Below, piece after piece: positions 1 through 18,651 of a DNA stretch of 18,970 bases. Location: positions 1 to 18,970 of the forward strand of contig JBFMCP010000049.1 of NCBI GenBank assembly GCA_040754455.1, read 5' to 3'. The DNA comes from Nitrospirota bacterium. GTDB taxonomy: Bacteria > Nitrospirota > Thermodesulfovibrionia > Thermodesulfovibrionales > Dissulfurispiraceae. The notes beneath the pieces were generated by a model. That model searched no databases. It was not told the origin of the DNA and saw only the letters and a list, made by a program, of their open reading frames with translations. How positions within the stretch are numbered: the stretch's first letter is position 1; each line of letters opens with the position of its first letter. Both the position numbers and the translations under genes were made by a program.

Positions 1-248
1 ATAAGCTCAGGACAGATTACGAGAAGACGGCTACCCTGTCCTTTACCGCTGCAAGCAACAACTTCGAGCTGGCCATTGCGGTGGCTGTTGCGGTCTTCGG
101 GATCAACTCAGGGGCGGCCTTTGCAGCGGTAATCGGTCCCCTCGTCGAAGTGCCTGTATTGATCAGCCTTGTCAATGTCGCACGATATTTCCAGAAGAAA
201 TACTTCACGGTTGAATATTGCAGGGTCAAAGAGACGACCCCGCTCTAA
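1..248 (+). CDS. acr3: Acr3-family arsenite efflux transporter, 3' end (5'-partial)
   Basis: Own translation from base 3: [59 protein letters not shown]...PL, stop TAA at 246-248. [11 protein letters not shown] and GPLVEVP are Acr3 signature motifs. Not in the ORF track because the start is outside the window. Confidence 0.95.
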
Positions 249-272: not shown

Positions 273-653
273 ATGAAAAAAAGAGTACTGGCCTTACTTG
301 TTGCAGCGACCATCCTTCTGATAGCAGGACTGAGCAGCGCAGACCAGCTTGAGATGACGCTTAATAGAGCGAAAAAAGAGGGCAAAATTGTCATGCTTGA
401 GCTCGGCTCGGTAGGATGCATTCCCTGTGAACAGATGAAACCGGTTATGAAAAAACTTTCAGAGAATTACAAGGGCAAGCTGGAAGTTATCTTCGTTGAT
501 GTGAAGAAAGATTCGAAAAACGCGAAAAAGTATGGTGTTTTTGTAATTCCGGTACAGGTCTTTCTGGATAAAGAGGGGAAAGAGTTCCACCGGCATCTCG
601 GCTATTACTCTTATGAAGAGATTGTTCCTGTATTGAAAAAAGCAGGTTTGTAA
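273..653 (+). CDS. Exported thioredoxin-family protein (CIPC)
   Basis: Signal peptide MKKRVLALLVAATILL, CxxC motif GCIPC, downstream cis-Pro-like VIPVQVF, GGAGA RBS upstream. Confidence 0.9.
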   Translation: MKKRVLALLVAATILLIAGLSSADQLEMTLNRAKKEGKIVMLELGSVGCIPCEQMKPVMKKLSENYKGKLEVIFVDVKKDSKNAKKYGVFVIPVQVFLDKEGKEFHRHLGYYSYEEIVPVLKKAGL

Positions 654-682: not shown

Positions 683-1399
683 ATGAAGATAGGGATACTT
701 GGGGACATTCACGGAAATCTGGAAGCTCTTAAAGCCGCCTATCAGGAGGCTGTTTCCCGTGGCGCGGAGAAGATATACCATCTCGGAGATCTTGGGGGAT
801 ATGCCCCTTTTGTAAACGAGGTAATAGATTTTCTGATCGAACATACGATCAGCGGCGTTCAAGGGAATTATGACGAAACAGTGGGAAATGACAGGGAGCA
901 TTGCGGATGCAAATACGAAGATCCGGTTCAGGCTGAAATGTCGTCATTGGGCTTCGAATGGACAAAAAAACACGCATCCAAAAAGAGCAAAGAGTACATG
1001 AGGGCGCTGCCCTTTGAAATATCTCTAACGGTCGACAGTAAAAGGGTAATCATTTTCCATGCGTCCCCAAGGAAAAACAACCTCTACTGGTATGAAGAGA
1101 GACCGGAAAAGTTCTTTAAGGAGATGGCGGAGAAGGTGGATGCCGATATCCTCATCTACGGGCATACCCATAAACCATATCGGAAGGATATTGGTGGCAA
1201 GGTCTTCATAAATGCCGGAAGCATCGGTAAGCCGAAAGACGACGATCCCAGGACCTGTATCACTTTAGTCGAAATAGAACAGAACAGTGTGAAAAGTGAA
1301 TTCATTAGAATTCCCTATGATGTCGGGAAAACGGCTTCAGCGATTATTGAAAGGGGCTTACCCCCTTATTTTGCGGAGAAGCTGAGGCAAGGGAGATGA
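683..1399 (+). CDS. Calcineurin-like metallophosphoesterase (YfcE-like)
   Basis: Motifs DIHGN, GDLGGY, GNYD, H, GHTH, NAGSIG. Confidence 0.92.
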   Translation: MKIGILGDIHGNLEALKAAYQEAVSRGAEKIYHLGDLGGYAPFVNEVIDFLIEHTISGVQGNYDETVGNDREHCGCKYEDPVQAEMSSLGFEWTKKHASKKSKEYMRALPFEISLTVDSKRVIIFHASPRKNNLYWYEERPEKFFKEMAEKVDADILIYGHTHKPYRKDIGGKVFINAGSIGKPKDDDPRTCITLVEIEQNSVKSEFIRIPYDVGKTASAIIERGLPPYFAEKLRQGR

Positions 1400-1517: not shown

Positions 1518-1545
1518 TTGAATCACCTGATTTAAGATATATAAT
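1518..1545 (+). promoter_or_regulatory. Putative sigma70 promoter with overlapping inverted repeat (possible repressor operator)
   Basis: TTGAAT (1518-1523), 16 nt spacer, TATAAT (1540-1545). The -35 lies in the 8-2-8 imperfect palindrome TTGAATCA-CC-TGATTTAA (1518-1535). Confidence 0.55.
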
Positions 1546-1578
1546 TACGCTATCAACATGATTTACTGAGAGGGCTCT

Positions 1579-1791
1579 ATGGACGAACTGGTATGCTACT
1601 GTTTCAATTATACGAAGTCAGATATTAGAGAGGATGTGCTGAGGAACAAGGGACGTTCTACAATAATTGAGCGTATCCTTGCAACCGCAAAGGAGGGTAA
1701 GAGCCAATGTAAGATCAAAAATCCCTCGGGTCGATGATGCCTTGCCGACGTCCGCCGTGTCGTGGACGAGGTTGCACAAGAAAAGACCTGA
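1579..1791 (+). CDS. Small BFD-like/CopZ-N-terminal-like 2Fe-2S protein, putative selenoprotein (Sec at codon 53)
   Basis: GAGAGGG RBS, then MDELVCYCFNYTKSDIREDVLRNKGRSTIIERILATAKEGKSQCKIKNPSGR-TGA-CLADVRRVVDEVAQEKT-stop. The TGA at 1735-1737 replaces the first Cys of the family motif NPxGxCC, and a hairpin follows it. Confidence 0.85.
1749..1768 (+). promoter_or_regulatory. Candidate bacterial SECIS hairpin
   Basis: Begins after an 11-nt spacer following the UGA. Stem CGUCCGC/GUGGACG (7 bp, one G-U), loop CGUGUC. Confidence 0.7.
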
Positions 1792-1904
1792 AGAGACGCA
1801 ATCTAGTCGTACACTGGCCGTAAGGTTACGTTGTAGCAACTACAAATGAAACAACCTCTATGTCCTGCCCTGCAGTTTGGGCAATCAGGTTTCTAAGGAT
1901 TGCT

Positions 1905-2594
1905 ATGGAATCGCTTTTGGGTAATATTCAATCAATCGTTCAGCACCAGCACGGCGTTGCGTTCCTCGCCGTCTTTATCGGCGGGCTCGTCTCCGCGGCG
2001 AGTCCCTGCGTTCTTGCAGCCATTCCCCTGATCATCGGCTATGTAGGCGGCTATTCCGAAGGGAACAAGAAGAAGGCAGCGCTCTACTCTCTGGTATTCA
2101 TCCTCGGCCTCTCCATCACCTTCACCCTGCTCGGTGCAGCAGCCTCAGCGATGGGACAATTCCTCGGCTTCTTGGGAAAATGGCTTTCTATTGGCCTCGC
2201 CGTTATTGCCGTGCTCATGGGGCTACAGCTCATGGGGTTTATTTCAATCCCTCTCCCTTTCCAAAGGACACGAGAAGTCAGAACAAAAGGATTATGTGGA
2301 GCCTTCATTCTGGGGCTCATCACCGGCACTGTCTCCTCACCTTGCGCGACTCCTGTGCTGGCAGTCATTCTCGCCTACGTATCAACACAGGGGAACATTT
2401 TCTACGGTGGAGCCCTTTTGTTCGTCTATGCACTCGGGCACTGTGCCCTCATATTCATCGCTGGTCTTTCTATCGGGCTCACCGAAAGCATTATCAGTTC
2501 AAAGGGAGTAAAGAACTTTTCCTTCTACTCCAAGAAAATCAGCGGCGTCATGCTCATGGCTGTGGGGATTTATTTCGCCTTCACCATGCTTTAA
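1905..2594 (+). CDS. ccdA: CcdA/DsbD transmembrane-domain disulfide reductase (cytochrome c biogenesis CcdA family)
   Basis: About six TM segments with two Pro-Cys motifs (SPCVL, SPCATP). The ATG at 1905 has an AAGGA RBS and is preferred over 1860. Confidence 0.9.
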   Translation: MESLLGNIQSIVQHQHGVAFLAVFIGGLVSAASPCVLAAIPLIIGYVGGYSEGNKKKAALYSLVFILGLSITFTLLGAAASAMGQFLGFLGKWLSIGLAVIAVLMGLQLMGFISIPLPFQRTREVRTKGLCGAFILGLITGTVSSPCATPVLAVILAYVSTQGNIFYGGALLFVYALGHCALIFIAGLSIGLTESIISSKGVKNFSFYSKKISGVMLMAVGIYFAFTML

Positions 2595-2611
2595 TTGTCA
2601 GGAGGACAGCG

Positions 2612-3388
2612 ATGAAACAGAAAATGTTACTTATCATGCTTGCGATCTGCACCATTTCCCTTGCTCCGGCAATAGCGCAGGAAACAAAAAATAGCGATCA
2701 GACAATCAAGGATACAAAGGCTGAATGGTACTTCCCCGAATGGCTCGGGACAAGCCCCTATGCTCCGGTATTCAAGGTCAGAGACACTGAAAATAAATAC
2801 GGCCGCTATGCGAAACAGGTAAAGATGATCACTGTCAAAGACCTCATTAAATTCCACGGCCACTTCTGTGGGGGGCTCGTGGAAAGTGCCGCATCGCTCA
2901 GGGTCGCCTTTGACCTGCTCTTTGCGGATGGCATTGTGGACCGTACAGATTTACGGATAGCGTCCAACAATTCCGCTTGCGGCGGAGATGTGGCTGCATA
3001 TTTGACCGGCGCGCGGGCCCGGTTCGGCACGCATGTTATAGACAACTCCCTGACGGAAAGCGAATTCTACGTGCAGCAGGTCTCTACTGGAAAAACAATC
3101 CATGTAAAGCTCAATCCCGAAATGTATCCCAAAGAGGTCAAGGCACAAATGAAGAAAATAGAGTCGGGCAATTTCACGCCGAAGGACATAGACCTGTTTC
3201 AGGAGCTTCAATGGGCTTATGCGAAGCGTATGGTCAACCGGCCGCTCAAGGAGTCTTTCATCGTTGAGGAAGTGAAGGATTATAAGTGGCCGGCACCGTC
3301 GTACAAGGATTTTGGTAAACGGAAGGACAATGACTACAAGGATGTGCCGTTGCTGCCGCTCAATGGAGCACAGGAGCAAAAGCAATGA
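2612..3388 (+). CDS. Secreted FmdE-domain protein
   Basis: AGGAGG RBS before ATG 2612, signal peptide MKQKMLLIMLAICTISLAPAIA, FmdE-type FHGHFCGG motif and SACGGD. Confidence 0.8.
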   Translation: MKQKMLLIMLAICTISLAPAIAQETKNSDQTIKDTKAEWYFPEWLGTSPYAPVFKVRDTENKYGRYAKQVKMITVKDLIKFHGHFCGGLVESAASLRVAFDLLFADGIVDRTDLRIASNNSACGGDVAAYLTGARARFGTHVIDNSLTESEFYVQQVSTGKTIHVKLNPEMYPKEVKAQMKKIESGNFTPKDIDLFQELQWAYAKRMVNRPLKESFIVEEVKDYKWPAPSYKDFGKRKDNDYKDVPLLPLNGAQEQKQ

Positions 3389-4220: not shown

Positions 4221-4496
4221 ATGATTGCCGATATTCTGAAATATGCCGAAGCCGATATAACACTTAAAAGGCTTCTGGAGAAAGCGCAGGATTACGCGCG
4301 GGTCTATGTCTTTGCGAAAAAGAGGCAGAAAGGTTGCGACGGGCTTGGAGAGATGACCAATCTGAAGGATGAATTCAGAGGGGTGCTGGACGAGTTGATG
4401 GAATACTGCAAAGAGAAGAAGTATACTCTCGACAGTTTTTCGCCGGACCTCGACGAGCTATCGGATGCGATCATCAAAGAGCAGGATCTGTTATGA
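4221..4496 (+). CDS. Hypothetical protein (91 aa, helical, single GCDG motif plus one further Cys)
   Basis: Co-oriented in the operon with protein-like composition. No family recognised. Confidence 0.7.
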   Translation: MIADILKYAEADITLKRLLEKAQDYARVYVFAKKRQKGCDGLGEMTNLKDEFRGVLDELMEYCKEKKYTLDSFSPDLDELSDAIIKEQDLL

Positions 4497-4705: not shown

Positions 4706-5099
4706 CCGTACGCAGTCATGCAGTATTGTGTGTGTTTCTTCGACTTTGCCTCTATCACAGGGCTGCACTTAAAGTTGCAGCTTGACTTTCTATATCAATT
4801 TACGTTTATATTTAATTATTGTTTCACTGTTTCGCAAATATACGTTGAATAGGGGACTCCGCGCATATGGAAAATGGCCCATTCAGCTTTTCCCTCATAA
4901 TATTATCTCTATATTTATCTTGTAGCATTAAGGCACCGCAAACTGTTTCCAATGTTTTCCAACCACGTCATTATGCCTCACGCAAAGGCCGCCTTCTCAC
5001 CTGGAGCGACTTATGTATAAAAATAAATTTATGTTTTGCTTGTCTGTGGGTATACGGATGTGGTACTTCTCACGACCGGAAGATAAAGGACATGTCGTT

Positions 5100-6416
5100 A
5101 TGAAAACAAAAAGGACTTTAACCGTGACATTGGCAATGCTGCTGTTTCTTTCTATGCTGTCCTCATCTGCCCTGGCCGAGGGCGCTCCCGAAGCTTTTAC
5201 CCTCAATGAATGCATTGCCGTCGCGCTCAAGCAAAGCCCTTTGATAAAGTCTGCCGAATTCGATATTGAGGCGGCCCGGGCATCCTTCCATATTTCAAAA
5301 GGCGCTCTATTTCCGAGACTCGACGCCAATGCCGCCTATCTGAAAGAGAATCAAAACATACCGTATATCCCTGCACAGGCGACAAATATCCCCGCAAAGT
5401 TCAGCGATGAGGTCTATTCATGGAACTTGTACCTGAGAGTTCCCGTCTATGAGGGAGGCAGGCTCTCACGGCAGGTTGCGGTCGCCGAGCTTGAAAAAGC
5501 GGTCCAGCAGGCAAGAAAGGAGTTCACCGTTCAGGATCTCGTTGCCAACCTTACCAATACCTTTAATAAATTCCTTCAACTCAAAGAGCTGAAAAAGGCT
5601 TATGAAAAATCGGTAGAGGCCCTGGAGAGGCAAAGAAAAAATACGGAACTCCTCGTTCGCTCAGGGCGGACGGCACAGGTGGAACTGCTGAGAGTCGAGG
5701 TACAACTTGCCGGCGAGCAGCAGAACCTCATAAAAACAGATGAGGCGATAATCCGCACGAAGAACACGCTGGCATTCCTCATGGGCGTGCAGGCAAGTGA
5801 CGTACGCGATATCACCGGAACCTTCGCCCCCGTTGCAGAGATCAAGCAGGCCGATGCGTATGAGTTGATGAAATCCCGGCCTGACATCCTCGCTTTGTCA
5901 CAAAGGACAGAGCAGGCGAAAAGGAGAATAGCCATCGCAGCGGGCAAACGCTACCCTGCAGTGGCGCTGATCGGCAACTATGGGAACCGCGCAGGCCAGG
6001 GGCTGCATGACAGGGAAGAGGTGTGGGAGGCAGGCGTTGTCGCCACCATCAACCTCTTCGATGCAGGGATCACATCATCGGAGATACGTCGCGAGGAAAG
6101 CCTCTACAAAAAGGCGGCAGAAGAGCTCAGGCTCGCTGAATTAAAAGGGAAGCTGGAGGTTGATAACGCTCTGTCCTCGCTGCGTGAGGCTGAGAACAGA
6201 CTCTCAGTGGCAAAGAAGGCGGTCGTGCAATCGGAGGAGTCGCTGCGGATCGAGGAGCTGAAATACAAAACAGGAGCAGGGACGATCACCGATGCGCTCC
6301 TTGCCCAATCGGCCATGAGCCTTGCCCAGGCAAACTACTACCAGGCGCTCTATGATCAGGCATCAGCACTGACCGAATACAAGCGTTCAACAGGAAGCAT
6401 AGGAGTGACACAATGA
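5100..6416 (+). CDS. TolC-family outer membrane efflux channel
   Basis: Signal peptide after ATG 5100 (AAGGA RBS), two OEP repeats (LFPRLD...YEGG and RYPAV...LFDAG), YKTGAGTITDAL. Confidence 0.93.
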   Translation: MKTKRTLTVTLAMLLFLSMLSSSALAEGAPEAFTLNECIAVALKQSPLIKSAEFDIEAARASFHISKGALFPRLDANAAYLKENQNIPYIPAQATNIPAKFSDEVYSWNLYLRVPVYEGGRLSRQVAVAELEKAVQQARKEFTVQDLVANLTNTFNKFLQLKELKKAYEKSVEALERQRKNTELLVRSGRTAQVELLRVEVQLAGEQQNLIKTDEAIIRTKNTLAFLMGVQASDVRDITGTFAPVAEIKQADAYELMKSRPDILALSQRTEQAKRRIAIAAGKRYPAVALIGNYGNRAGQGLHDREEVWEAGVVATINLFDAGITSSEIRREESLYKKAAEELRLAELKGKLEVDNALSSLREAENRLSVAKKAVVQSEESLRIEELKYKTGAGTITDALLAQSAMSLAQANYYQALYDQASALTEYKRSTGSIGVTQ

Positions 6417-7573
6417 AAAAAACAATTGCTTTTGCTGTAGCTATACTCCTTGTCATCGGAGCCGTCATTATCATCAAGAATAAAAAGTCAGCCATCGCCC
6501 ATACGCCAACCGTTGCGTCCTATCCCCTGCCTGTGGAAGCAGCGGAGGCAAAGGAAGGAAGTATCACCATATCTTCCCACTATATCGGAACCATACTGCC
6601 GTTACGCTATGCTGATGTTTCGCCGAGGATCACCGGCAACATCCTTTCGGTATATGTGAGGGAGGGTGATGTCATTCACAAGGGACAATTGCTCGTAACT
6701 CTTGATGATAGAACATTAAGAGAGAAGGAATCGGCCCAGGCGCTGGAGATTCCGGCAACAGAGGCGCAACTGGCAGGCGCAAATAGCGGCTACGAGACCC
6801 AGCAGGCGATCTATGAGAGAGATGAAATGCTGCACAGGGAAGGCGCCATAGCCCTTGAGGCGCTCCAGAAGTCCAGGGCACAGAGGGATTTGTCATATGC
6901 ACAGGTAAAGAGCCTCGAAGAAAAGATAAAGGCGCTCAAAAATGCATACAAGGCGGCTTCGGTAGAAACATCGTATGCCAGACTTTATTCCCCTATAGAC
7001 GGCGTTGTTACCAGGAGACTCCAGGAGCCGGGAGACCTTGCGGTACCCGGGAAAGCAGTCCTGAAGGTTGAATGCACTTCCGACTTCAAGGTCGCCGTTC
7101 AGTTGCCGCAGGCTGAAATGTCGTCGATAAAAAAAGGAGGAGCAGTCATACTTTCCGACGGCAGAAACAAATCGGAGGCTGCGATCAGCCGTGTTTATCC
7201 AGCGGTTACAACGGGCACCCTCGGCACGGTCGAGATAGCGGTACCGAAACGCCCCTTTGATATCCATTCAGGCGGTACGGTCGGCGTGGATGTCATCACC
7301 GGCAAGACGGATACGGGAATAATTGTTCCCTTGAATGCCCTCCTCGAAAGCCAGCGTGGATGCTTTGTGTATAAAGTCAATGGCAACAAGATTACGGTCT
7401 CGAAGGTGCAGGTGCTCGGCAAGAACGGCGAATACGCAACCATTCAGGGTGCGCTGAAGAATGGGGATATTGTCGTAACCGGAGATGAAGGGAAACTCCT
7501 CAGACTCTCCGACGGAATGTCTGTTGCCGTTGTCTTCCGGGAAAACACGGACAGCGGAGGGGGAAGACGATGA
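6413..7573 (+). CDS. RND efflux periplasmic adaptor (membrane fusion protein)
   Basis: N-terminal anchor, lipoyl-like halves (ITGNILSVYVREGDVIHKGQLL and LYSPIDGVV), coiled hairpin. Overlaps both neighbours by ATGA. Confidence 0.93.
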   Translation: MKKTIAFAVAILLVIGAVIIIKNKKSAIAHTPTVASYPLPVEAAEAKEGSITISSHYIGTILPLRYADVSPRITGNILSVYVREGDVIHKGQLLVTLDDRTLREKESAQALEIPATEAQLAGANSGYETQQAIYERDEMLHREGAIALEALQKSRAQRDLSYAQVKSLEEKIKALKNAYKAASVETSYARLYSPIDGVVTRRLQEPGDLAVPGKAVLKVECTSDFKVAVQLPQAEMSSIKKGGAVILSDGRNKSEAAISRVYPAVTTGTLGTVEIAVPKRPFDIHSGGTVGVDVITGKTDTGIIVPLNALLESQRGCFVYKVNGNKITVSKVQVLGKNGEYATIQGALKNGDIVVTGDEGKLLRLSDGMSVAVVFRENTDSGGGRR

Positions 7574-10500
7574 GCTTTACCGAACGATACCTGAAAAGGC
7601 CGTATCTTATTACCTCTCTGATATTTCTGGCGGCATTTATCGGCTTCATCGGCTTTAAGAAAATGCCGATCAACCTCTTTCCCGACAGCGACTATCCCCA
7701 GATCGCAGTTATCACCTTTTATCCCGGCGCCTCTGCGAAGGACATTGAAGACAAGGTCACCCGTCTCGTCGAAAAGGAACTGAACACCATAGACCAGATA
7801 CGGAAGGTCTCTTCATCCACAAAGGACGAGATGACCGCGGTTACGGCTGAGTTTGAGTACGCAAAGGGGCTCGAGGCCGCTGCAACCGATGTGGCAAATG
7901 CGTTGAAAAAGGTCGAGGGCCAGTTGCCGTCCGATATACGCTCCCCGCAAATATTCAAGATCAGCAAGGCGACGCAGCCCGACCTGATCCTCTCTTTGAC
8001 TTCGAAAGAAAACTCTCCCTATGACCTCGCAAAGATACGCCAGCTTGCAGACAATAACATAAAGGAAGACCTCCTGAGAGTGCCGGAAGTGGCCAACGTG
8101 GAGGTCTTCGGCGGTTATAATCCCGAGTTGACCATATCAGTCAAGCCTGACCTCCTGAACGCCTATAGCATAAACATTGCGCAGGTCATCGCCGCAGTAG
8201 CCGCCCAGAACCTCAATATCCCGGACGGTCTGATCATAAGAGATAAGGACCAGTATATCATCAAGACACAGGGCGAGCTGCTGAAGAAGGAGGATGCCGG
8301 CGAGATCGTCGTTGCGCACGCCGGCACAGGGGATGTCCATCTCAGGGACGTGGCGGAGATACGGGCGGGATACCAGGAGCGGCAGTCCCTCTTTCACGGC
8401 AACGGCAAGCCGGCCATAGCGATAAGCATTCTTCGCTCAGTCAGAGGGCATGACATGGACACCATCCACTCTGTCGAAAAAGCCCTCCCTGCGCTCAAGG
8501 CAAAGTATTCCATGATCAACTTCGAGATCGCGGACACCCAGAAGGATCTCATTGAAAAGAGCGTCGATAACATGATCGACGCCTTGCGGGACGCGATCAT
8601 CATGACAGTGATCGTAATCTTTCTCTTCCTTGCCGATATACGCGGCATGATCATCTCGGCGATCTCCATCCCCTTTACCTATCTCCTGACCTTTGCGGTG
8701 ATGTACCTGCTCGGCATGGAATTCAACATGGTCACCCTCACCGGAATCATCCTTGCCGTGGGCATGCTCCTCGACGACGCCATCGTGGTCATAGAAAATA
8801 TAGAACGGAGATACCACAGCAACAAGGAGGACTTGAAGAACGCGGTCTTCGGCGGCACGGACGAGGTGATGCTCGCCATATTCTCCGGCACCTACGCAAC
8901 GATCATGGTGCTCCTTCCCATCATATTCATCGGCGGCTATGTGCAGACGGTCTTGAGGCCGCTTTCGCTGACCCTCTCCATCGCTCTCGCCGTATCGTAT
9001 ATCGTCTCCGTTACCGTGATACCGCTCTTCGCTCCCCTGATCTTAAAGGCAGAGGCCAAAAAGAACAGGCTGGAACAGGCAACGCAGCTTTTTGACCGGT
9101 ATGTCATCTCTCCCATAAGAGACTTCTTTGTCGGACTCCTCGGCACCGCGCTCAAGCACAGGGCACTGTTCCTTGCCGGCGCGGTCATCGTTCTCGTCTT
9201 CAGCATGAGGCAGATGCCCCTGGTCGGCAGGGACCTCATGCCGCCCATGGATACCGGTATCATCAAGGTCGCCTTCGAAGCGGACTCCAACACATCCCTC
9301 CTGACAACAGAGACGTTATTGAACAATATGGAAGAGATCATCAAAAAGACACCGGGGGTGGTGCGAATATCCACAACGGTAGGTTCCGAGCCCGGCGTCA
9401 TCAGTTTCGGCAGCGGCAGGATCCCCCAGCAGGGGGCGATGACCGTCCACCTTGTGGACAGGTTTCACCGCAAGGAATCCATCTGGCAGATAGAAGACAG
9501 GCTCAGGAGTGAGTTCAGAAAGATCCCGGGACTCAAGCATATTGATGTGTACGATTACGGAGCAACCGCTATGTCGTCAATCAAAGCGCCGGTTGATATC
9601 ATGATAAGCGGTCCCGACCCCGCGATCATCAACGCCATCGGCAACGATGTCGTGAATAAACTGCAAAAGGTCAAAGGGCTTGCCAGCATATCACGAAGCT
9701 GGACGTATGACAAAAAGGAGATAGCCTATAAGATCGATATGGGGAAGGCTGCTCTGTACGGGATGTCACCGGTCGCCGTCTCCCAGCAGGTGGCGGCAGC
9801 CGTGCGCGGGGGAATGGCATCGGTATTCAGGGTTCCGGGGCAGGACGGGTATTCCATGCGGGTCCAATTTTCCCCCGAATACAGGAACAATCTCTCGTCC
9901 CTCGAAACCATGCTCATCCAAACACCGAAAGGCGCTGTCCCGCTTAAGGAACTAGGGAGGCTGGAGATGGTCAATGCACAAACATCGATGGCCCGTCAGT
10001 ATCTGCAGCCCACTCTCGATATATACGGTTACCGAAGCAAAGCAGCGGTATCTCACATCCACAATGACCTGAATGCCGTGCTAAAGGATATAAAGCTTCC
10101 TCCGGGGTACACCCTTGCGCACGAAGGGGATTTGAAGCAGATGAAAGACTCCTTCGGAAGGCTGCTGGCCGCACTCGGCATCGGACTGGTACTTCTCTAT
10201 TTTTCCCTCGTGCCTGCGTTCAAATCATGGATGCACCCGTTGACCATAATGTCGGCCATTCCCCTTGCACTTATCGGGGCGGTGTGGTCAATGCTCATTA
10301 CCGGAAAGCATCAGTGCCAGCCGGCGTTCATGGGCATGATACTCCTCGCCGGGATCGTGGTGAAGAATTCCATTCTCCTCATCGATTTTATCGAGGAAGC
10401 GCGTGGCAAAGGAGAGGGCCTGATTGACGCCATCGTCGGCAGCGTGAAGATAAGGACCAGGCCCATTCTGATGACCGCAGTAGGGACCAGTGTCGGGATG

Positions 10501-10695
10501 CTCCCCATTGCACTGGAATGGGCCATAGGGCTCGAGCGCCTCTCCCCACTGGCAATCGTCGCAATCGGCGGCTTGATGGTTTCGACGTTCTTAACGCTTG
10601 TCTATGTTCCAATCCTCTATAGTCTGTTTGACGGCTTGAAAGAAAAGGTCGGGAAGCTCTCTTTTTTCAAAAGAGCACCGGGACTGGAAACATAG
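7570..10695 (+). CDS. RND efflux permease (AcrB/AcrD/AcrF family)
   Basis: 1041 aa. TM4 GMLLDDAIVVIENIER, KNSILLIDF and RTRPILMT proton-relay motifs. Confidence 0.95.
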   Translation: MSFTERYLKRPYLITSLIFLAAFIGFIGFKKMPINLFPDSDYPQIAVITFYPGASAKDIEDKVTRLVEKELNTIDQIRKVSSSTKDEMTAVTAEFEYAKGLEAAATDVANALKKVEGQLPSDIRSPQIFKISKATQPDLILSLTSKENSPYDLAKIRQLADNNIKEDLLRVPEVANVEVFGGYNPELTISVKPDLLNAYSINIAQVIAAVAAQNLNIPDGLIIRDKDQYIIKTQGELLKKEDAGEIVVAHAGTGDVHLRDVAEIRAGYQERQSLFHGNGKPAIAISILRSVRGHDMDTIHSVEKALPALKAKYSMINFEIADTQKDLIEKSVDNMIDALRDAIIMTVIVIFLFLADIRGMIISAISIPFTYLLTFAVMYLLGMEFNMVTLTGIILAVGMLLDDAIVVIENIERRYHSNKEDLKNAVFGGTDEVMLAIFSGTYATIMVLLPIIFIGGYVQTVLRPLSLTLSIALAVSYIVSVTVIPLFAPLILKAEAKKNRLEQATQLFDRYVISPIRDFFVGLLGTALKHRALFLAGAVIVLVFSMRQMPLVGRDLMPPMDTGIIKVAFEADSNTSLLTTETLLNNMEEIIKKTPGVVRISTTVGSEPGVISFGSGRIPQQGAMTVHLVDRFHRKESIWQIEDRLRSEFRKIPGLKHIDVYDYGATAMSSIKAPVDIMISGPDPAIINAIGNDVVNKLQKVKGLASISRSWTYDKKEIAYKIDMGKAALYGMSPVAVSQQVAAAVRGGMASVFRVPGQDGYSMRVQFSPEYRNNLSSLETMLIQTPKGAVPLKELGRLEMVNAQTSMARQYLQPTLDIYGYRSKAAVSHIHNDLNAVLKDIKLPPGYTLAHEGDLKQMKDSFGRLLAALGIGLVLLYFSLVPAFKSWMHPLTIMSAIPLALIGAVWSMLITGKHQCQPAFMGMILLAGIVVKNSILLIDFIEEARGKGEGLIDAIVGSVKIRTRPILMTAVGTSVGMLPIALEWAIGLERLSPLAIVAIGGLMVSTFLTLVYVPILYSLFDGLKEKVGKLSFFKRAPGLET

Positions 10696-10776: not shown

Positions 10777-11490
10777 ATGAAAAACAACTGTATCGATGAT
10801 TTCCTGAGAATGGTTCCGGCGTTTTCGGAAGTAAGCGATCAGGCATTGAACGAGATCAAAACGCATCTCTACAAGGAGCACTATCCGAAAGGCGGGATCA
10901 TATTCCAGCAGGGGGATCCCGTGACCGCACTCTATATCGTCGAAATGGGAAAGATCGAAATCTATAAGGATGATGAAGAGGGGAAAAGGCTCACCATGTG
11001 GTTCATCAATCCGGCTGAAATGTTCTGTGTCCCTACACTGATTTTCGGCAAAGCGATTGCAAGCGCCGAGGCAGTGAAGGATACGCTTCTCTATTGCCTG
11101 GATAAGGAGCACTTTGACCGCATTCTTAGGGAATTTCCCGAGTTCTCCACCGGTCTGTTGCTCTGTCTATCGAACAGGATACTCAGCTACTCCAACTCTG
11201 TGGACAAGATTGCCTTCAACAGCACCGTTTCGCGTATCGCTGAAATACTCCTGACCCACAAAACCGCTGATGAAGAGGGCAATACGGTTTGCCTCCTCTC
11301 CCAAACCGATATCACCTCCCTGGCAGGTATATGCAGAGAGACCGTCTGCAGGACCTTGAACAAGCTCAAAGCGGACCACATCATAAGCGTCAAATACCGC
11401 ATGATCATTATCCATGACCTCCAAAAGCTTAAGGCTCTCTGCAAAGAGCGAGGAACGTATCCCCTCCCCTGCAGAGAGCGAGACGGCTAA
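10777..11490 (+). CDS. Crp/Fnr-family transcriptional regulator
   Basis: cNMP-binding-like beta domain (IFQQGDP...LYIVEMGKIEIY), HTH LSQTDITSLAGICRETVCRTLNKL, AAGGAG RBS. Confidence 0.93.
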   Translation: MKNNCIDDFLRMVPAFSEVSDQALNEIKTHLYKEHYPKGGIIFQQGDPVTALYIVEMGKIEIYKDDEEGKRLTMWFINPAEMFCVPTLIFGKAIASAEAVKDTLLYCLDKEHFDRILREFPEFSTGLLLCLSNRILSYSNSVDKIAFNSTVSRIAEILLTHKTADEEGNTVCLLSQTDITSLAGICRETVCRTLNKLKADHIISVKYRMIIIHDLQKLKALCKERGTYPLPCRERDG

Positions 11491-15095: not shown

Positions 15096-15121
15096 ACTGT
15101 CAGTGAATGGGAGAATCTCTT

Positions 15122-15520
15122 ATGCATGGCCTCTCATTTGAATCAAAAAAGATGCAAAACGCTAAGAGAAGCTTTTATCCGGATTACCTGAGCGAAATAC
15201 TCCTGGTGATATTTCTCACCGCGGGGACTGCTTTTGTACTCGCTCTGCTTTTCCCGCCACCTCTTACCATGGAGATTAATTTCGCCGCAGCATATCAGCC
15301 TCTGCCCGAGTGGTACTTCCTGTGGATCTATCAGCTGGTGAAGTATTTCCCCGGGGCATGGGCATTCGTAGGCACGGTCCTCGTGCCGGCAGCTGCTTTT
15401 GCACTGCTGCTCTTCATTCCCCGCATTGACCGCGGCACTGCATCTACAAGGGTTCTTGCGGGCTCATGCATTATCGCGTTATTGATCAGCTTCATCATCC
15501 TTACACTGGTTGCCTTATGA
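15122..15520 (+). CDS. Cytochrome b C-terminal half (b6f subunit IV-like, PEWY; ExtQ-like)
   Basis: FYPDY, Qo-site motif PLPEWYFLWIYQLVK and three TM helices. Start 15122 follows a GGGAGA RBS; alternatives are 15107 and 15152. Confidence 0.88.
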   Translation: MHGLSFESKKMQNAKRSFYPDYLSEILLVIFLTAGTAFVLALLFPPPLTMEINFAAAYQPLPEWYFLWIYQLVKYFPGAWAFVGTVLVPAAAFALLLFIPRIDRGTASTRVLAGSCIIALLISFIILTLVAL

Positions 15521-16077
15521 GTAGTATGGGAAGGATTATAAAGCCGCAAACGGCATCCCCTCAGCAGACCGGGGAGAGGATACTCGACTCTTCTGCACAT
15601 CCGGCCGCAGAGGAAGGGCATATTCCTGCAAACGCACGACGGGAGTTCCTAAAGAGCGTTATTAAAAAGGGATTTACGCTGCTTGCCGTGCTCTTCGGAT
15701 TTGTCACGCTGCGTTTCCTTTATCCTGCAAAAATAAAAGAGCCTGAATTGCGTTATTACGCTCTGCTACCCGAGGAGGAACTGCCGCGGGAAGGAATTAA
15801 GAAGGCCGAACTTACCTACAAAAAAAACGATAAAACGATAACCTTGAGAATATTTCTGGTCGGTCACGGAGACAGGCAGTTTGCACTCTCCTCATCGTGC
15901 AGCCATCTGGGGTGCCTCGTGAGCTGGTCATACCACAAGAACCTGTTTATCTGTCCGTGCCACGGCGGCACCTACGATATCGAGGGGAACGTGGTATCCG
16001 GCCCTCCGCCGCTTCCTCTTTCCCGGTTGCCGCTGAAAGTGCAGGACGGAAAGGCCTTTGTCGGGATCAGGGTCTGA
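15517..16077 (+). CDS. Rieske 2Fe-2S subunit of a Rieske/cytochrome b complex
   Basis: Tat-like ARREFLK plus TM anchor, boxes CSHLGC and CPCHGG, GPPPLPL. ATGA overlap with the upstream gene. Confidence 0.93.
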   Translation: MSSMGRIIKPQTASPQQTGERILDSSAHPAAEEGHIPANARREFLKSVIKKGFTLLAVLFGFVTLRFLYPAKIKEPELRYYALLPEEELPREGIKKAELTYKKNDKTITLRIFLVGHGDRQFALSSSCSHLGCLVSWSYHKNLFICPCHGGTYDIEGNVVSGPPPLPLSRLPLKVQDGKAFVGIRV

Positions 16078-16080
16078 ACT

Positions 16081-16728
16081 GTGGGTGGAATGTTCAATTG
16101 GGCAATCAGCCGTTTCAACCTAAAAGCGGCGCACCGCACGTTTCTCCAGAGGCGTCTTCCTCTCAATATCACCTACCTGCATTGCCTCGGCGGGATCGCC
16201 TTTACCCTTTATCTCGTGCTGCTGCTGACGGGCATGCTCCTGAGTGTCTACTATGTGCCGTCAGAAGCAGAAGCATTCCAGAGCGTCTTGAACATAACAC
16301 GAGAGGTCCCCTTGGGCTTTCTGATAAGAGGGCTCCACAAATGGTCTGCCCATCTCTTTATCGTGTTTCTCTTGCTCCATATGATACGAGTCGTTCTTCA
16401 CCGGGCGTATCGTCCTCCCCGTGAATTAAACTGGATGGCAGGAACCGCTCTCCTCATTCCTTCCTTTGCCTCGGGCTTCACCGGCTATCTCTTACCATGG
16501 GACCAGAAGGCATATTGGGCGACCGTCGTCGGCACTAATATGGCGACAACCATACCCGTAGTCGGGAAATACCTCCTCTATTTCCTACGGGGTGAAGCCG
16601 ACGTGAATGGGATGACGCTCGTCCGTTTTTACAGCCTTCACATCATCTGGCTGCCGCTCCTCACAGGCCTGCTGCTGTGGGCGCATTTTCATATGGTCAA
16701 GAGGCAGGGCATCTCAGGAGGGCTTTAA
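16081..16728 (+). CDS. Cytochrome b N-terminal half (cytochrome b6-like; ExtP-like)
   Basis: Four heme-b His ligands (LHKWSAH...LLHM and SLHII...WAHF), GYLLPWDQKAYWA, C-terminus RQGISGGL. Start is GTG 16081 or ATG 16090. Confidence 0.93.
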   Translation: MGGMFNWAISRFNLKAAHRTFLQRRLPLNITYLHCLGGIAFTLYLVLLLTGMLLSVYYVPSEAEAFQSVLNITREVPLGFLIRGLHKWSAHLFIVFLLLHMIRVVLHRAYRPPRELNWMAGTALLIPSFASGFTGYLLPWDQKAYWATVVGTNMATTIPVVGKYLLYFLRGEADVNGMTLVRFYSLHIIWLPLLTGLLLWAHFHMVKRQGISGGL

Positions 16729-16758
16729 GAGGCACACTATGAAACGGTTAACCGAACG

Positions 16759-18651
16759 ATGAGCATCCGGGTAGGCATACTAAGTGAAAAACTTACGATA
16801 AGAATTATTCTTTTCAGTCTGCTGATCGCCCTGTTGATCATTATTCTCCTCGGCTATCGGGCATGGATGAATACTTCTACTGAATGTGTGCAATGCCATG
16901 GAGACAGAGATAGAATGGAAGAGGAACATGCTCCGTGGGCGTATGTAACTGAAGAAACAGTCCGGAAGGAATCCCGCCATCTCCATATCCAGTGCAGGGA
17001 TTGCCACCTCGGTAACGGCAGGGCAAAAGATAAGGGCAAAGCCCATGAGGGAATGCTTAAAATGCTGATAGTCTCAAAAGAAGGAACTCTCTTAACCCGC
17101 ACATCGGGCTATCCCTATGGACTGAGCAGGACAGGCGCGAATGGCATCCTCGCCTTTTTGCCGAAATTTCAGGAAAACGGCGAATGGCAATTTTTTCCCG
17201 TAAGAAATATCCTCTGGCATGACAGAAACGTGAAGAGCTTCAACTTTGATCCGGATATCGCGCAGAAGACCTGCGGGAAGCCGGGCTGTCATCCTGAGAT
17301 GGTTGCCCAATTTAAAAAGACCACGATGGCGACCAATTCCAGACAGAGGACCATGAGGACCTGGCTCAAGCCTTACGGTCCCCACAACTGCGGTCCTTCC
17401 TTCGCCGATCTCCCCCCTGAAGAGGTACTGCGCAGCGCAGCGTTTTCATTCAAGAATACCGCTGCAATTGCACAAGAGCTGAACACCTCCTTCTCAGAGG
17501 ATCAAGCAGTGGCGAAGCAGAAGTTCTGTAACGTATGCCATGCCGGCTGCCTTGACTGTCATTATGCTCCCGATGAAAAAGAGGGCGTACACCGTTTTAC
17601 TAAGAAGCCCTTATCCGAGAGCTGCGGGGGCTACGGCAGAGGGACGACCATCTGTCATCCCGGTGCAATGCAGAGCAGACGGGGCGAAACGTATATAGGA
17701 GACGATTATTCAGTACCATCGGGAATGCGTTCTGATGTCCATTACCGGAAGAATATTCACTGCATAGATTGCCACCCAGTGGGAGAAAAAGGTATGGGCG
17801 ACATGCGTCGGGAAGCAGATTGCCAGGGCTGCCACAGGGAAATAGAAAAAGCTCACGCACGCAGCATCCACAAAAAACTCGATTGTGCCGCCTGTCACAT
17901 AAGCGAATTGAGGGGCTATCAGATCACCGTCTGGGGACCGGGGATCATCGCGGGAAAGAATAACCCCTTTAAGAAATATTCTCTTTATTATGGCATTCAA
18001 AGTCCCCCCATACTGATGAAAGACCAAAAGGGGATATGGATGCCGGTGAAAATATGGCCACACAGCGTTGGCAATTTCAGGCCGGAGGTAAAAGCTTCTG
18101 AAAAGCTCATGTTCAGATGGCCTGGCGGCGAGACGAGAGATGCCTACTACATCATCGGGACGTTCAAAACGCCTTCGGGCAATAGGCATCTGCTCTGGTT
18201 TGAGATAGAGCAGGCAGCCCACCCTTTTGGACCCGCGAGGAACTGCCCCTCCTGCCATGCCTCGCCACGGCAAGTCTCCACATCACATTGGGAATTTCTC
18301 GATGAACAGGGAGCTGAGCCGTTCAAAGGGGGATATAAAATTACAGCTGATGAAAGCGGACTTAGAATTGAGGATATGAGAAACACCACCACAATCAGAT
18401 TATTGAAAGGATATCATCTTGAGGATTTTGCCTCATGGCTCTATCTGAAAGACAAGTGGTCGATGCCGGGAGACTTTTCTATCAAGGTCGATCAGGGGAA
18501 ATATAAAAAATACGATCACCTCTCCATAATAGTAAAGGCAAAACTCAGCACCATTGATCACCGCTCTCGCGCTTTCGATAAGAAAACTGCACAAGCCTAT
18601 CGGAGACTCAAGGGGATTGCGCTGCATAATCCGGAAGAGGGGATGAAATGA
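16759..18651 (+). CDS. Membrane-anchored multiheme cytochrome c (8 CxxCH plus 2 atypical motifs)
   Basis: N-terminal TM helix. CVQCH, CRDCH, CNVCH, CLDCH, CIDCH, CQGCH, CAACH, CPSCH, plus CGKPGCH and CGGYGRGTTICH. Confidence 0.9.
   Translation: MSIRVGILSEKLTIRIILFSLLIALLIIILLGYRAWMNTSTECVQCHGDRDRMEEEHAPWAYVTEETVRKESRHLHIQCRDCHLGNGRAKDKGKAHEGMLKMLIVSKEGTLLTRTSGYPYGLSRTGANGILAFLPKFQENGEWQFFPVRNILWHDRNVKSFNFDPDIAQKTCGKPGCHPEMVAQFKKTTMATNSRQRTMRTWLKPYGPHNCGPSFADLPPEEVLRSAAFSFKNTAAIAQELNTSFSEDQAVAKQKFCNVCHAGCLDCHYAPDEKEGVHRFTKKPLSESCGGYGRGTTICHPGAMQSRRGETYIGDDYSVPSGMRSDVHYRKNIHCIDCHPVGEKGMGDMRREADCQGCHREIEKAHARSIHKKLDCAACHISELRGYQITVWGPGIIAGKNNPFKKYSLYYGIQSPPILMKDQKGIWMPVKIWPHSVGNFRPEVKASEKLMFRWPGGETRDAYYIIGTFKTPSGNRHLLWFEIEQAAHPFGPARNCPSCHASPRQVSTSHWEFLDEQGAEPFKGGYKITADESGLRIEDMRNTTTIRLLKGYHLEDFASWLYLKDKWSMPGDFSIKVDQGKYKKYDHLSIIVKAKLSTIDHRSRAFDKKTAQAYRRLKGIALHNPEEGMK

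What the first reader, a model, noticed from the sequence alone, without database searches (positions are those of the whole stretch)
1579..1791. Hidden 70-aa UGA-recoded 2Fe-2S selenoprotein inside an arsenic/thiol-redox locus
Seen: RBS, ATG, a CYC...C...NPSGR-UGA-C reading frame that stays protein-like for 17 more codons, and a 7-bp hairpin exactly 11 nt after the UGA. Known: the CYC...C...NPxGxCC motif marks the BFD-like 2Fe-2S domain of CopZ-N-terminal-type proteins, and an ~11-nt UGA-to-hairpin spacing is the E. coli fdhF SECIS geometry. Inference: a stand-alone minimal domain with four Cys (6, 8, 44, 54) to hold the cluster and Sec53 left free beside it. This would suit reduction or binding of a metalloid or soft metal. 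The ORF track misses this gene, and standard gene callers may truncate or drop it.
Basis: partly seen in the sequence, partly recalled or inferred. Interest (0 to 1): 0.8.

Follow-up and report, generated by a model that had tools for sequence, protein, structure and literature searches.

The report
Small iron-sulfur selenoprotein gene, truncated by callers

Summary
Window 1579-1791 (+) reads ATG, 52 codons, TGA (1735-1737), 17 more codons, then a TGA stop. A 7-bp hairpin starts 11 nt after the first TGA.

The hairpin alone is not significant (z -0.8). Comparison settles it:
- All 8 short homologues among 60 related genomes carry TGA in the same column. So do 80 of 80 best loci from a species-wide scan.
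- Cys-Cys homologues exist.
- The frame stays open for 12-30 codons after the TGA.
- The hairpin is kept, with compensatory changes and restricted synonymous codons. It is missing from Cys forms.
- The genome has selA, selB, tRNA-Sec and two selD genes.

The protein is a stand-alone BFD/CopZ-N-terminal-type domain. C6, C8, C44 and C54 are the likely 2Fe-2S ligands, with Sec53 beside them.

Among 83 distinct loci, 31 have ars, mer/hgc, chr or CDF genes nearby.

Two reviews already list this family as '(2Fe-2S)-binding protein (CopZ family) form 1, GxUC'. It is therefore a new member of a known kind. Its function is untested; a metal(loid) chaperone or redox role is inferred.

The parts
1518..1545 (+). 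Promoter-like site: TTGAAT, 16-nt spacer, TATAAT. It lies in the AT-rich gap upstream of the gene.
   Evidence: It matches 10 of 12 consensus positions, but the region has 1 such site against 1.4 expected from shuffles. It is a lead only.
1568..1574 (+). Shine-Dalgarno-like GAGAGGG, 4 nt before the start codon.
   Evidence: Read directly from the sequence.
1579..1791 (+). Coding sequence of the 70-residue selenoprotein (ATG to the TGA stop), a stand-alone CopZ-N-terminal/BFD-like 2Fe-2S-type domain.
   Evidence: The AlphaFold2 model has mean pLDDT 92.8.
1735..1737 (+). In-frame TGA read as selenocysteine (Sec53), in the motif G-R-U-C.
   Evidence: TGA is in this column in 8 of 8 short homologues and in 80 of 80 best loci. 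Other homologues have Cys here.
1749..1768 (+). SECIS hairpin: 5' arm 1749-1755, apical loop 1756-1761 with a conserved G-U at 1759-1760, and 3' arm 1762-1768.
   Evidence: The six core pairs are kept in 75-82 of 82 distinct sequences, with 13 C-G to U-A double changes. Seven Cys forms lack the hairpin.
1744..1772 (+). Possible lower stem (1744-1746 with 1770-1772) in this copy only.
   Evidence: Predicted but poorly conserved. Pair 11:37 is unpaired in 50 of 82 sequences.
1789..1791 (+). True stop codon (TGA) with no hairpin behind it.
3..248 (+). Context: 3' end of an ACR3 arsenite efflux gene, cut by the contig end.
   Evidence: TIGR00832, E 6.8e-26, profile positions 268-327 of 327.
273..653 (+). 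Context: thioredoxin-like protein with a hydrophobic N-terminus and a C-I-P-C motif, probably exported.
   Evidence: Thioredoxin_2, E 1.3e-11. Export is inferred from the sequence.
683..1399 (+). Context: YfcE-type metallophosphoesterase.
   Evidence: TIGR00040, 73.5 bits against a cut-off of 56.25.
1860..2594 (+). Context: DsbD/CcdA-type transmembrane thiol-disulfide electron transporter, 68 nt downstream. No terminator-like site lies between the two genes.
   Evidence: DsbD_TM, E 1.8e-24; 0 terminator-like sites.
2588..3388 (+). Context: FmdE-domain protein. The start is approximate.
   Evidence: PF02663, E 2.1e-12.

Best explanation
Window 1579-1791 is a genuine gene for a 70-residue cytoplasmic selenoprotein. 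SelB with tRNA-Sec reads the UGA at codon 53 as selenocysteine. The signal is a 6-7 bp hairpin with a G-U-containing loop that starts 11 nt downstream and lies inside the coding sequence.

The protein is the stand-alone form of the cluster-binding half of CopZ-N-terminal/Bfd-type domains.

Inferred: C6, C8, C44 and C54 hold a [2Fe-2S] cluster, and Sec53 sits next to the cluster ligand C54 as an exposed selenolate.

Inferred from gene neighbourhoods: the protein works with metal(loid) transporters (ACR3 here; ArsP, MerT/MerP and ChrA elsewhere). It would act as a soft-metal(loid) acceptor or chaperone, or as a small redox partner. The cluster would supply or sense electrons and the selenolate would bind As(III), Hg(II) or a similar species.

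Shown: the gene, the recoding signals, the machinery, the fold type and the neighbourhood pattern. Not shown: selenium incorporation, the cluster, the ligand assignment and any metal binding.
For: Recoding
- Among 61 related genomes searched, 9 short-frame matches (including this one) each carry one TGA. Three long-frame homologues carry none. The TGA is in the same column and is followed by Cys in all 9.
- A scan of one genome per species found 201 relatives. All 80 of the 80 kept have TGA-Cys at this column.
- In a sample of 301 genomes of the phylum, all 26 matches of 89.9 bits or more contain a TGA. The 14 matches without stops score 71.8 bits or less and mostly lie in long frames.
- Cys homologues exist. 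Of the 150 best cluster representatives, 27 short and 49 long forms have Cys-Cys, 60 end just before the column, and 8 show W, which is TGA read as Trp.

SECIS
- 81.5% of cells are paired, against 33-50% when the partners are slid.
- The covariation score is 0.277 against 0.221 for shuffles, reached by 0 of 500 shuffles.
- Pair 18:31 shows 13 C-G to U-A double changes. Pair 20:29 uses GU, AU and GC.
- The Val codon in the stem is only GTC or GTT (80 of 80 Val codons), while the Val codon in the loop uses all four codons.
- The stem Arg is CGC in 62 of 62 cases, while the loop Arg is CGT or CGG.
- 74 of 82 Sec forms keep 6 of 6 core pairs. Seven Cys forms keep 2-4.

Machinery
- selA, selB, two selD genes (each with its own TGA) and tRNA-Sec are present.

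Fold
- NCBIfam CopZ_Nterm_CC matches at E 2.7e-15 over profile positions 85-137 of 138.
- The alignment to 2HU9 matches C-Y-C and N-P-S-G-R-C-C.
- The model has pLDDT 92.8.

Ligands
- C6, C8, C44, P49, column 53 and C54 are invariant in 104 sequences.
- Column 53 tolerates Arg in 3 representatives and Gly in one further protein (P0003). C54 is present in all 87 evaluable proteins.

Neighbourhood
- Of 83 distinct loci, 21 have ars genes, 8 have mer or hgcA genes, 5 have chrA, and 31 have at least one of these or a CDF gene within 3.5 kb.
- Recurrent orders are ArsR-ArsC-ArsP-[gene]-TauE-ArsE-ACR3, ACR3-(Trx)-[gene], MerR-MerT-MerP-[gene] and ChrA-[gene].
Against: - No direct evidence of expression or selenium incorporation. 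No RNA run was listed.
- The hairpin of this copy alone is not significant (z -0.8).
- No Rfam family matched it.
- Pfam and NCBIfam scores are below the curated cut-offs.
- The stem overlaps a conserved peptide (D-V-R/H-R/Q-V-V/A-D) that some Cys forms also keep. Part of the nucleotide conservation is therefore protein-level.
- The Cys-form hairpin control used only long forms with a different peptide. No DNA of short Cys forms could be obtained.
- 52 of 83 loci show no recognised metal(loid) gene nearby. No matched random-gene control was run. Gene calling in the flanks was crude.
- This copy has Ser42 where the other 88 sequences have Cys. Any mechanism that needs a Cys42-Sec53 pair cannot apply here.
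- A sister subfamily carries Sec at the second Cys of the pair (motif CU). Which of the two positions binds the cluster is therefore open.
Confidence: 0.55

Rival explanations
1. It is a real selenoprotein with a 2Fe-2S cluster, but its job is electron transfer in thiol redox rather than metal(loid) handling. For example, it could be the cytoplasmic donor to the adjacent DsbD/CcdA-type membrane protein, which reduces the exported thioredoxin-like protein. The ars and mer neighbours would then reflect only a shared stress regulon.
For: In this window the gene lies between a thioredoxin-like gene with C-I-P-C and a DsbD_TM gene 68 nt downstream. By tblastn, thioredoxin homologues appear in 6 of 88 loci and DsbD_TM homologues in 7 of 88. 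These include a Desulfovibrionaceae MAG at only 33-45% identity. The fold is that of Bfd, an electron-transfer ferredoxin. 52 of 83 loci lack recognised metal(loid) genes.
Against: The Trx and DsbD_TM pair is present in only a minority of loci. The most frequent immediate neighbours are transporters of toxic species: ACR3 in 14 loci, ArsP in 10, TauE in 10, MerT in 4 and ChrA in 5 of 83. CcdA-type proteins are normally reduced by thioredoxin (established knowledge, recalled), not by one-electron carriers.
Confidence: 0.22
2. It is a real selenoprotein in which Sec53 itself is a cluster ligand, giving a selenolate-ligated 2Fe-2S cluster, and C54 is the free residue.
For: Column 53 is Cys or Sec in nearly all members. 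The sister subfamily places Sec at the neighbouring position (CU), so one of the two subfamilies may well have a Sec ligand.
Against: Column 53 is Arg in 3 representatives and Gly in one further protein (P0003). C54 is present in 87 of 87 evaluable proteins. From memory only, the second Cys of the pair is the cluster ligand in the A. fulgidus CopZ N-terminal structure. That paper could not be read here.
Confidence: 0.1
3. The TGA is an ordinary stop or a nonsense mutation. The gene would then give a 52-residue peptide or be a pseudogene, and the downstream frame and hairpin would be coincidence.
For: Gene callers treat it this way (P0002). The hairpin of this copy alone is within the range of shuffles. 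One relative (G294) is clearly decayed, with an extra TAA and a lost N-terminus.
Against: TGA is in the same column in 88 of 88 short relatives with DNA. Sequence after it is conserved. The hairpin covaries and has constrained synonymous sites. Cys-Cys homologues exist. The Sec machinery is complete. A 52-residue product would lack the invariant C54.
Confidence: 0.02

Closest known systems
[quoted passage not shown] It is listed in the tables of Zhang et al. 2022 (PMC9312934) and 2026 (PMC13188914). Only passages of these papers were read.
   Same: The motif is identical: G51-R52-U53-C54. The domain type and the single Sec match. It occurs in anaerobes rich in selenoproteins.
   Different: Nothing contradicts membership. 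The example accession and the CDD model could not be retrieved here, so it is not confirmed that 'form 1' is the 70-residue stand-alone form. The reviews give no function.
NCBIfam NF047645 CopZ_Nterm_CC (putative iron-sulfur cluster-binding metallochaperone) and NF045877 CopZ_Nterm_CU (Csac_0668 family 2Fe-2S cluster-binding (seleno)protein).
   Same: They share the C-terminal cluster-binding half, with C-x-C, then C, then N-P-x-G-x-C-C. NF045877 also includes selenoproteins.
   Different: Those families are 138 and 161 positions long and have an N-terminal half that is absent here. Only positions 85-137 and 99-158 match. Scores are 56.8 against a cut-off of 100, and 33.2 against a cut-off of 190. 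In the CU family Sec is the second residue of the pair, while here it is the first.
Archaeoglobus fulgidus CopZ N-terminal domain (PDB 2HU9).
   Different: 2HU9 has an extra N-terminal zinc-binding half and is fused to a copper-chaperone domain (recalled). It has Cys, not Sec. Sequence significance is weak (E 0.16).
Bacterioferritin-associated ferredoxin Bfd (Pfam Fer2_BFD; PDB 4E6K, 6E6R, 6E6S).
   Different: The Pfam score is below the gathering cut-off (18.7 against 26). The loop between the third and fourth ligand is longer and carries N-P-x-G-x. Bfd has no Sec, and Bfd partners bacterioferritin, which is not in these neighbourhoods.

Membership tests
Bacterial selenoprotein gene (UGA decoded as Sec) | An in-frame UGA conserved at the same column in orthologues | tested here: met
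   8 of 8 short homologues among 60 related genomes. 80 of 80 best loci. All 26 matches of 89.9 bits or more in a 301-genome phylum sample.
Bacterial selenoprotein gene (UGA decoded as Sec) | Homologues with Cys aligned to the UGA | tested here: met
   27 short and 49 long Cys-Cys forms among the 150 best representatives. Long Cys forms are also present in related genomes.
Bacterial selenoprotein gene (UGA decoded as Sec) | Conserved coding sequence downstream of the UGA | tested here: met
   C54, D57 and V58 are invariant in the 9 closest sequences. C54 is invariant and L55 and V58 are at least 90% conserved in 104 sequences. Frames stay open for 12-30 residues, median 21, in 82 distinct relatives.
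Bacterial selenoprotein gene (UGA decoded as Sec) | A SECIS stem-loop at the right distance downstream, supported by covariation | tested here: met
   The stem starts 11-12 nt after the UGA. Core pairs are kept in 75-82 of 82 sequences. There are 13 double changes at pair 18:31. 0 of 500 shuffles reach the covariation score. Synonymous sites are constrained in the stem but free in the loop. Seven Cys forms lack the hairpin. The spacing rule itself is recalled from work on E. coli fdhF.
Bacterial selenoprotein gene (UGA decoded as Sec) | selA, selB, selC and selD present in the genome | tested here: met
   selA scores 626 bits, selB 376 bits, and the two selD genes 344 and 328 bits. All are over their cut-offs. 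aragorn finds tRNA-Sec with anticodon tca.
Bacterial selenoprotein gene (UGA decoded as Sec) | Selenium actually incorporated into the protein | not testable with these tools
   This needs 75Se labelling or mass spectrometry. No RNA run was listed.
(2Fe-2S)-binding protein (CopZ family) form 1 selenoproteins (GxUC) | The G-x-U-C motif | tested here: met
   G51-R52-U53-C54. The family motif is as printed in the review tables.
(2Fe-2S)-binding protein (CopZ family) form 1 selenoproteins (GxUC) | [quoted passage not shown] | not testable with these tools
   No CDD library is available. Proxies are NCBIfam CopZ_Nterm_CC at E 2.7e-15, the 2HU9 alignment and the fold matches.
NCBIfam NF047645 CopZ_Nterm_CC / NF045877 CopZ_Nterm_CU | A full-length match above the curated cut-off, including the N-terminal half | tested here: not met
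   56.8 bits against a cut-off of 100, over profile positions 85-137 of 138. 33.2 bits against a cut-off of 190, over positions 99-158 of 161. The protein has only 70 residues.
Pfam PF04324 Fer2_BFD | A score at or above the gathering threshold | tested here: not met
   18.7 bits against a cut-off of 26, E 0.0022. The fold likeness to Bfd is nevertheless the best structural match.
[2Fe-2S] cluster-binding protein | Four conserved ligand residues in the BFD arrangement | tested here: met
   C6, C8, C44 and C54, plus column 53, are invariant in 104 sequences. The assignment of these residues as ligands is inferred.
[2Fe-2S] cluster-binding protein | The cluster is present in the protein | not testable with these tools
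   This needs UV-visible, EPR or Mossbauer spectroscopy, or a structure.

The most novel reading that the evidence does not exclude
The Sec next to the [2Fe-2S] ligand makes a redox-gated selenolate site. The small protein would then be a previously uncharacterised class of iron-sulfur selenoprotein metallochaperone or reductase in anaerobes. It would accept As(III), Hg(II) or related species at Sec53 (plus Cys42 in most members) and pass them to or from membrane transporters (ACR3, ArsP, MerT, ChrA), with the cluster controlling binding or delivering electrons. In the MerR-MerT-MerP-[gene] operons it stands where one might expect a cytoplasmic acceptor of Hg(II) from MerT. That expectation rests on recalled knowledge of canonical mer operons.
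Probability: 0.3. Interest if true: 0.6.

Novelty: new member of a known kind. Interest (0 to 1): 0.3.

Why it matters
For annotation, this gene and hundreds of relatives are stored in public protein sets as 52-55-residue stumps, or with Trp at the Sec site. Reading the UGA correctly restores a conserved ligand Cys and a C-terminal helix.

For biology, the family is widespread in Nitrospirota and Desulfobacterota and recurs inside arsenic, mercury, methylmercury (hgcA) and chromate loci. No function has been tested. That makes it a tractable small target, about 8 kDa and present in several cultured non-pathogenic carriers, for asking what a selenolate beside an iron-sulfur cluster does in metal(loid) handling.

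It is not a new kind of system, because two selenoprotein reviews already list the family.

Tried and rejected
- Rfam scan of 1500-1900 at E up to 10: only a chance snoRNA match and no SECIS family.
- Expression: no RNA holder was listed. The reads laid were DNA contigs only.
- Control with short Cys forms. I wanted their DNA to see whether the hairpin decays when Sec is replaced but the peptide is kept.
  - A 26-sequence alignment was too diverse to scan with.
  - A 7-sequence alignment found only 2 metagenome loci. One was another TGA form and one was spurious.
  - Three candidate regions from the phylum search were a truncated long form, a decayed TGA copy and a contig end.
  - The control was therefore run on long Cys forms only.
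- Papers not held: Sazinsky et al. 2007 on A. fulgidus CopZ, Haft and Tolstoy 2025 and the journal version of Haft and Gwadz 2023. Their content is either recalled or unknown. Haft and Tolstoy 2025 may describe the CopZ_Nterm families and their neighbourhoods.
  - The bioRxiv version of Haft and Gwadz has no occurrence of CopZ or 2Fe-2S.
  - The GOS paper that the reviews cite for this family does not contain 'CopZ', '2Fe-2S' or 'BFD'.
- Literature searches for a link between this family and arsenic found nothing specific.
- The first word-index protein search gave only 4 hits. The exhaustive HMM search was needed.
- The lower stem 10-12:36-38 predicted for this copy is rejected as part of the conserved element.
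- An alternative genetic code (TGA read as Trp or Gly) is rejected. The gene's own stop is TGA. aragorn labels one tRNA as tRNA-Sec with anticodon tca, but the listing viewed showed only the tRNA-Sec and tmRNA lines, so other tRNAs were not inspected. The selA and selB frames are read without internal stops.
Full report
**What is in the sequence**

On the + strand a GAGAGGG (1568-1574) precedes an ATG at 1579. The frame reads 52 sense codons, TGA at 1735-1737, 17 further sense codons, and a second TGA at 1789-1791. The product has Cys at 6, 8, 44 and 54 and the motif N-P-S-G-R-U-C.

Folding the RNA from the first TGA gives a 7-bp stem that starts 11 nt after the TGA, with a 6-nt loop (1749-1768). 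Its energy is -17.8 kcal/mol against -15.6 +/- 2.8 for shuffles, so z is only -0.8. The Pfam Fer2_BFD hit is also below threshold.

**Is the TGA a Sec codon?**

I searched 60 related genomes six-frame with stops read through.
- Eight genomes have a short homologue (42-55% identity), and every one has a single TGA.
- Three genomes have longer homologues (frames of 176-318 residues) without a stop.
- One further weak match (E 0.0083) was not related on translation.

Translation shows the TGA in the same column, always followed by Cys and by a conserved stretch. The long forms have Cys-Cys there.

A pattern scan of one genome per prokaryote species found 201 relatives. All 80 of the best 80 have TGA-Cys at this column. 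The pattern that found them lies in the N-terminal C-Y-C-F region. The other pattern was back-translated from Cys-Cys. The scan was therefore not biased toward TGA.

In 82 distinct relatives the frame stays open for 12-30 residues (median 21) after the TGA.

In a sample of 301 genomes of the phylum, 40 have a match.
- All 26 matches of 89.9 bits or more contain a TGA.
- The 14 matches without stops score 71.8 bits or less.
- One copy is decayed.

An exhaustive HMM search of 1.84 billion cluster representatives gave 1384 hits at E up to 1e-3. The best 150 break down as follows:

| Form | Count |
|---|---|
| End just before the Sec column | 60 |
| W at the column (TGA read as Trp by the caller) | 8 |
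| Arg at the column | 3 |
| Short Cys-Cys forms | 27 |
| Long Cys-Cys forms | 49 |
| Frameshifted or otherwise unclear | 3 |

The Sec/Cys pairing that marks true selenoprotein families is therefore present.

**The hairpin**

I aligned 89 sequences (82 distinct) from the TGA onward; no gaps were needed.

For the structure of this copy:
- 81.5% of cells pair, against 33-50% when partners are slid by 1-3 columns.
- The covariation score is 0.277 against 0.221 +/- 0.013 for shuffles, reached by 0 of 500 shuffles.
- The six core pairs are kept in 75, 82, 81, 82, 82 and 81 of 82 sequences.
- Pair 18:31 shows 13 C-G to U-A double changes.
- Pair 20:29 uses GU (44), AU (20) and GC (18).
- The outermost pair (15:34) is kept in 52 of 82.
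- The lower stem predicted for this copy is not conserved. Pair 11:37 is unpaired in 50 of 82.

The stem overlaps a conserved peptide, so I used the codons as an internal control.

| Codon | Position | Usage |
|---|---|---|
| Val | stem | GTC 65, GTT 15, none other |
| Val | loop | GTG 32, GTT 30, GTC 9, GTA 9 |
| Val/Ala, third base | stem | G in 81 of 82 |
| Arg | stem | CGC 62 of 62 |
| Arg | loop | CGT 45, CGG 10 |

This is selection on the RNA, not only on the protein.

In the SECIS register, 74 of 82 Sec forms keep 6 of 6 core pairs, 7 keep 5 and 1 keeps 4. Seven distinct Cys-Cys long forms keep only 2-4. The peptide of those long forms also differs, and I could not obtain DNA of short Cys forms.

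The 11-nt spacing matches what is known for the minimal E. coli fdhF element (recalled). No Rfam family matches.

**Machinery**

The 3.27-Mb genome encodes selA (626 bits), selB (376 bits) and two selD genes (344 and 328 bits), each of which has one in-frame TGA. It also encodes a tRNA-Sec with anticodon tca. The genome has a single copy of this domain.

**What the protein is**

NCBIfam places it nearest CopZ_Nterm_CC (E 2.7e-15) and CopZ_Nterm_CU, the 'Csac_0668 family 2Fe-2S cluster-binding (seleno)protein'. It matches only their C-terminal 50-60 positions and falls far below their cut-offs. It is the cluster-binding half standing alone.

A profile of nine sequences aligns to the A. fulgidus CopZ N-terminal domain (2HU9) at C-Y-C, a single Cys and N-P-S-G-R-C-C (E 0.16).

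An AlphaFold2 model built from a 104-sequence alignment is confident, with pLDDT 92.8 and pTM 0.80. It has one short strand and four helices.

Invariant columns in 104 sequences are C6, C8, C44, P49, column 53 and C54. Column 53 tolerates Arg in three representatives and Gly in one further protein (P0003). C54 is present in all 87 evaluable proteins.

My recollection of the 2HU9 paper is that the second Cys of the pair is the ligand. That paper could not be read here, so the assignment remains an inference.

2HU9 likewise has a single Cys there.

**Surroundings**

In the window the gene order is:
1. The end of an ACR3 arsenite exporter.
2. A probably exported thioredoxin-like protein with C-I-P-C.
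3. A YfcE-type phosphoesterase.
4. This gene.
5. A DsbD/CcdA-type membrane protein, 68 nt downstream with no terminator-like site between.
6. An FmdE-domain protein.
7. A phosphodiesterase-type protein.

An RND efflux system and respiratory cytochromes lie further on.

I clustered crude ORF calls within 3.5 kb in 83 distinct loci and named the clusters with NCBIfam and Pfam.

| Neighbour | Loci (of 83) |
|---|---|
| ACR3 | 14 |
| ArsR | 11 |
| ArsP-type permease | 10 |
| TauE | 10 |
| ArsC | 8 |
| ArsE-type thioredoxin | 7 |
| DsbD_TM | 7 |
| MerR | 5 |
| ChrA | 5 |
| MerT | 4 |
| MerP | 3 |
| HgcA | 3 |

In total, 31 of 83 loci have at least one ars, mer/hgc, chr or CDF gene. Many loci have short flanks, so this is a lower bound. 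No matched random control was run.

Recurrent orders are:
- ArsR-ArsC-ArsP-[gene]-TauE-ArsE-ACR3, in Desulfobacterota MAGs.
- (ArsR)-ACR3-(Trx)-[gene]-(YfcE, HgcA, FmdE, DsbD_TM or CDF), in Nitrospirota including this window.
- MerR-MerT-MerP-[gene].
- ChrA-[gene].

The common theme is a cytoplasmic partner placed beside transporters of toxic soft metals and metalloids.

**How it most likely works**

Shown: a recoded gene with a working-type SECIS, a complete Sec system, a Bfd/CopZ-N-type fold with four invariant Cys, and a neighbourhood rich in metal(loid) transport.

Inferred: a [2Fe-2S] cluster on C6, C8, C44 and C54, with a solvent-exposed selenolate at position 53 next to it. The protein would bind As(III), Hg(II) or similar species, or exchange electrons, in support of the neighbouring transporters. 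It would be analogous to what the CopZ N-terminal domain is thought to do for copper (recalled).

Rivals:
- A thiol-redox electron carrier feeding the DsbD_TM/thioredoxin pair (0.22).
- Sec as a cluster ligand (0.10).
- A plain stop or pseudogene (0.02).

**Comparison with what is known, and novelty**

[quoted passage not shown] Beside it they list 'form 2', the Csac_0668 family, motif CU (passages of tables). They cite the GOS paper, whose text does not contain the name.

The motif here is exactly GxUC. I could not retrieve the example accession or the CDD model, so identity with 'form 1' rests on motif and domain type.

Two earlier reports of this scan on other genomes reached the same verdict. 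They agree with mine but are not independent evidence.

I found no paper that tests the function or describes the ars, mer and chr neighbourhoods. One likely source, Haft and Tolstoy 2025, is not held.

**Verdict**

The gene is a new, mis-called member of a catalogued selenoprotein family. Interest is modest and lies in the untested function.

Noticed in passing
G000:C21:48405-49331 (-) and G000:C37:23899-24813 (+) (loci L010, L011): The genome has two selD (selenophosphate synthetase) genes above the family cut-off. Each has one in-frame TGA, so both are probably selenoproteins themselves.
   Followed up: no
L084 4892-6103; also L092 and L022, directly downstream of the selenoprotein gene: In three Nitrospirota loci the gene next to this selenoprotein is hgcA, the mercury-methylation corrinoid protein (397 bits for the L084 copy). 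This points to a possible link with methylmercury formation as well as resistance.
   Followed up: partly
window 1702-1704 (codon 42): This copy has Ser where the other 88 relatives with DNA have the first Cys of a C-x-C pair. It is a lineage-specific loss of a nearly invariant Cys. The A. fulgidus CopZ structure also lacks that Cys.
   Followed up: partly
L139 (G294:C48:9872-11018): This is a decayed copy of the gene in a genome of the same family. The N-terminal C-Y-C-F part is lost and there is an extra TAA, but the TGA-Cys and the downstream peptide are still recognisable.
   Followed up: partly
P0003, P0016, P0018, P0060 (proteins): These short homologues have Gly or Arg at the Sec column. 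GGA, CGA and AGA are each one base change from TGA. They may be real Sec-loss variants or sequencing errors.
   Followed up: no
L039 and L040: The gene and its flank are identical in two MAGs labelled Desulfobacterales and Sedimentisphaerales from one project. This may reflect a binning mix-up or recent transfer.
   Followed up: no
L115 (G156:C267:163-369): The match lies in a 174-residue open frame with two TGA codons. There may be a second recoded TGA or a fused neighbouring gene.
   Followed up: no
window 273-653 and 1860-2594: A probably exported thioredoxin-like protein (C-I-P-C) and a CcdA/DsbD-type membrane protein flank the gene. The same pair recurs with the gene in several Nitrospirota loci and, at 33-45% identity, in a Desulfovibrionaceae MAG (L041).
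   Followed up: partly
window 5013-10695 and 15107-18651: An RND efflux set (outer-membrane factor, adaptor, AcrB-type pump) lies at 5013-10695. Further on is a Rieske/cytochrome b cluster with multihaem cytochromes. A Crp-type regulator lies at 10777-11490.
   Followed up: no
window 4221-4496: A 91-residue ORF with no Pfam match lies between the phosphodiesterase-type gene and the RND operon.
   Followed up: no
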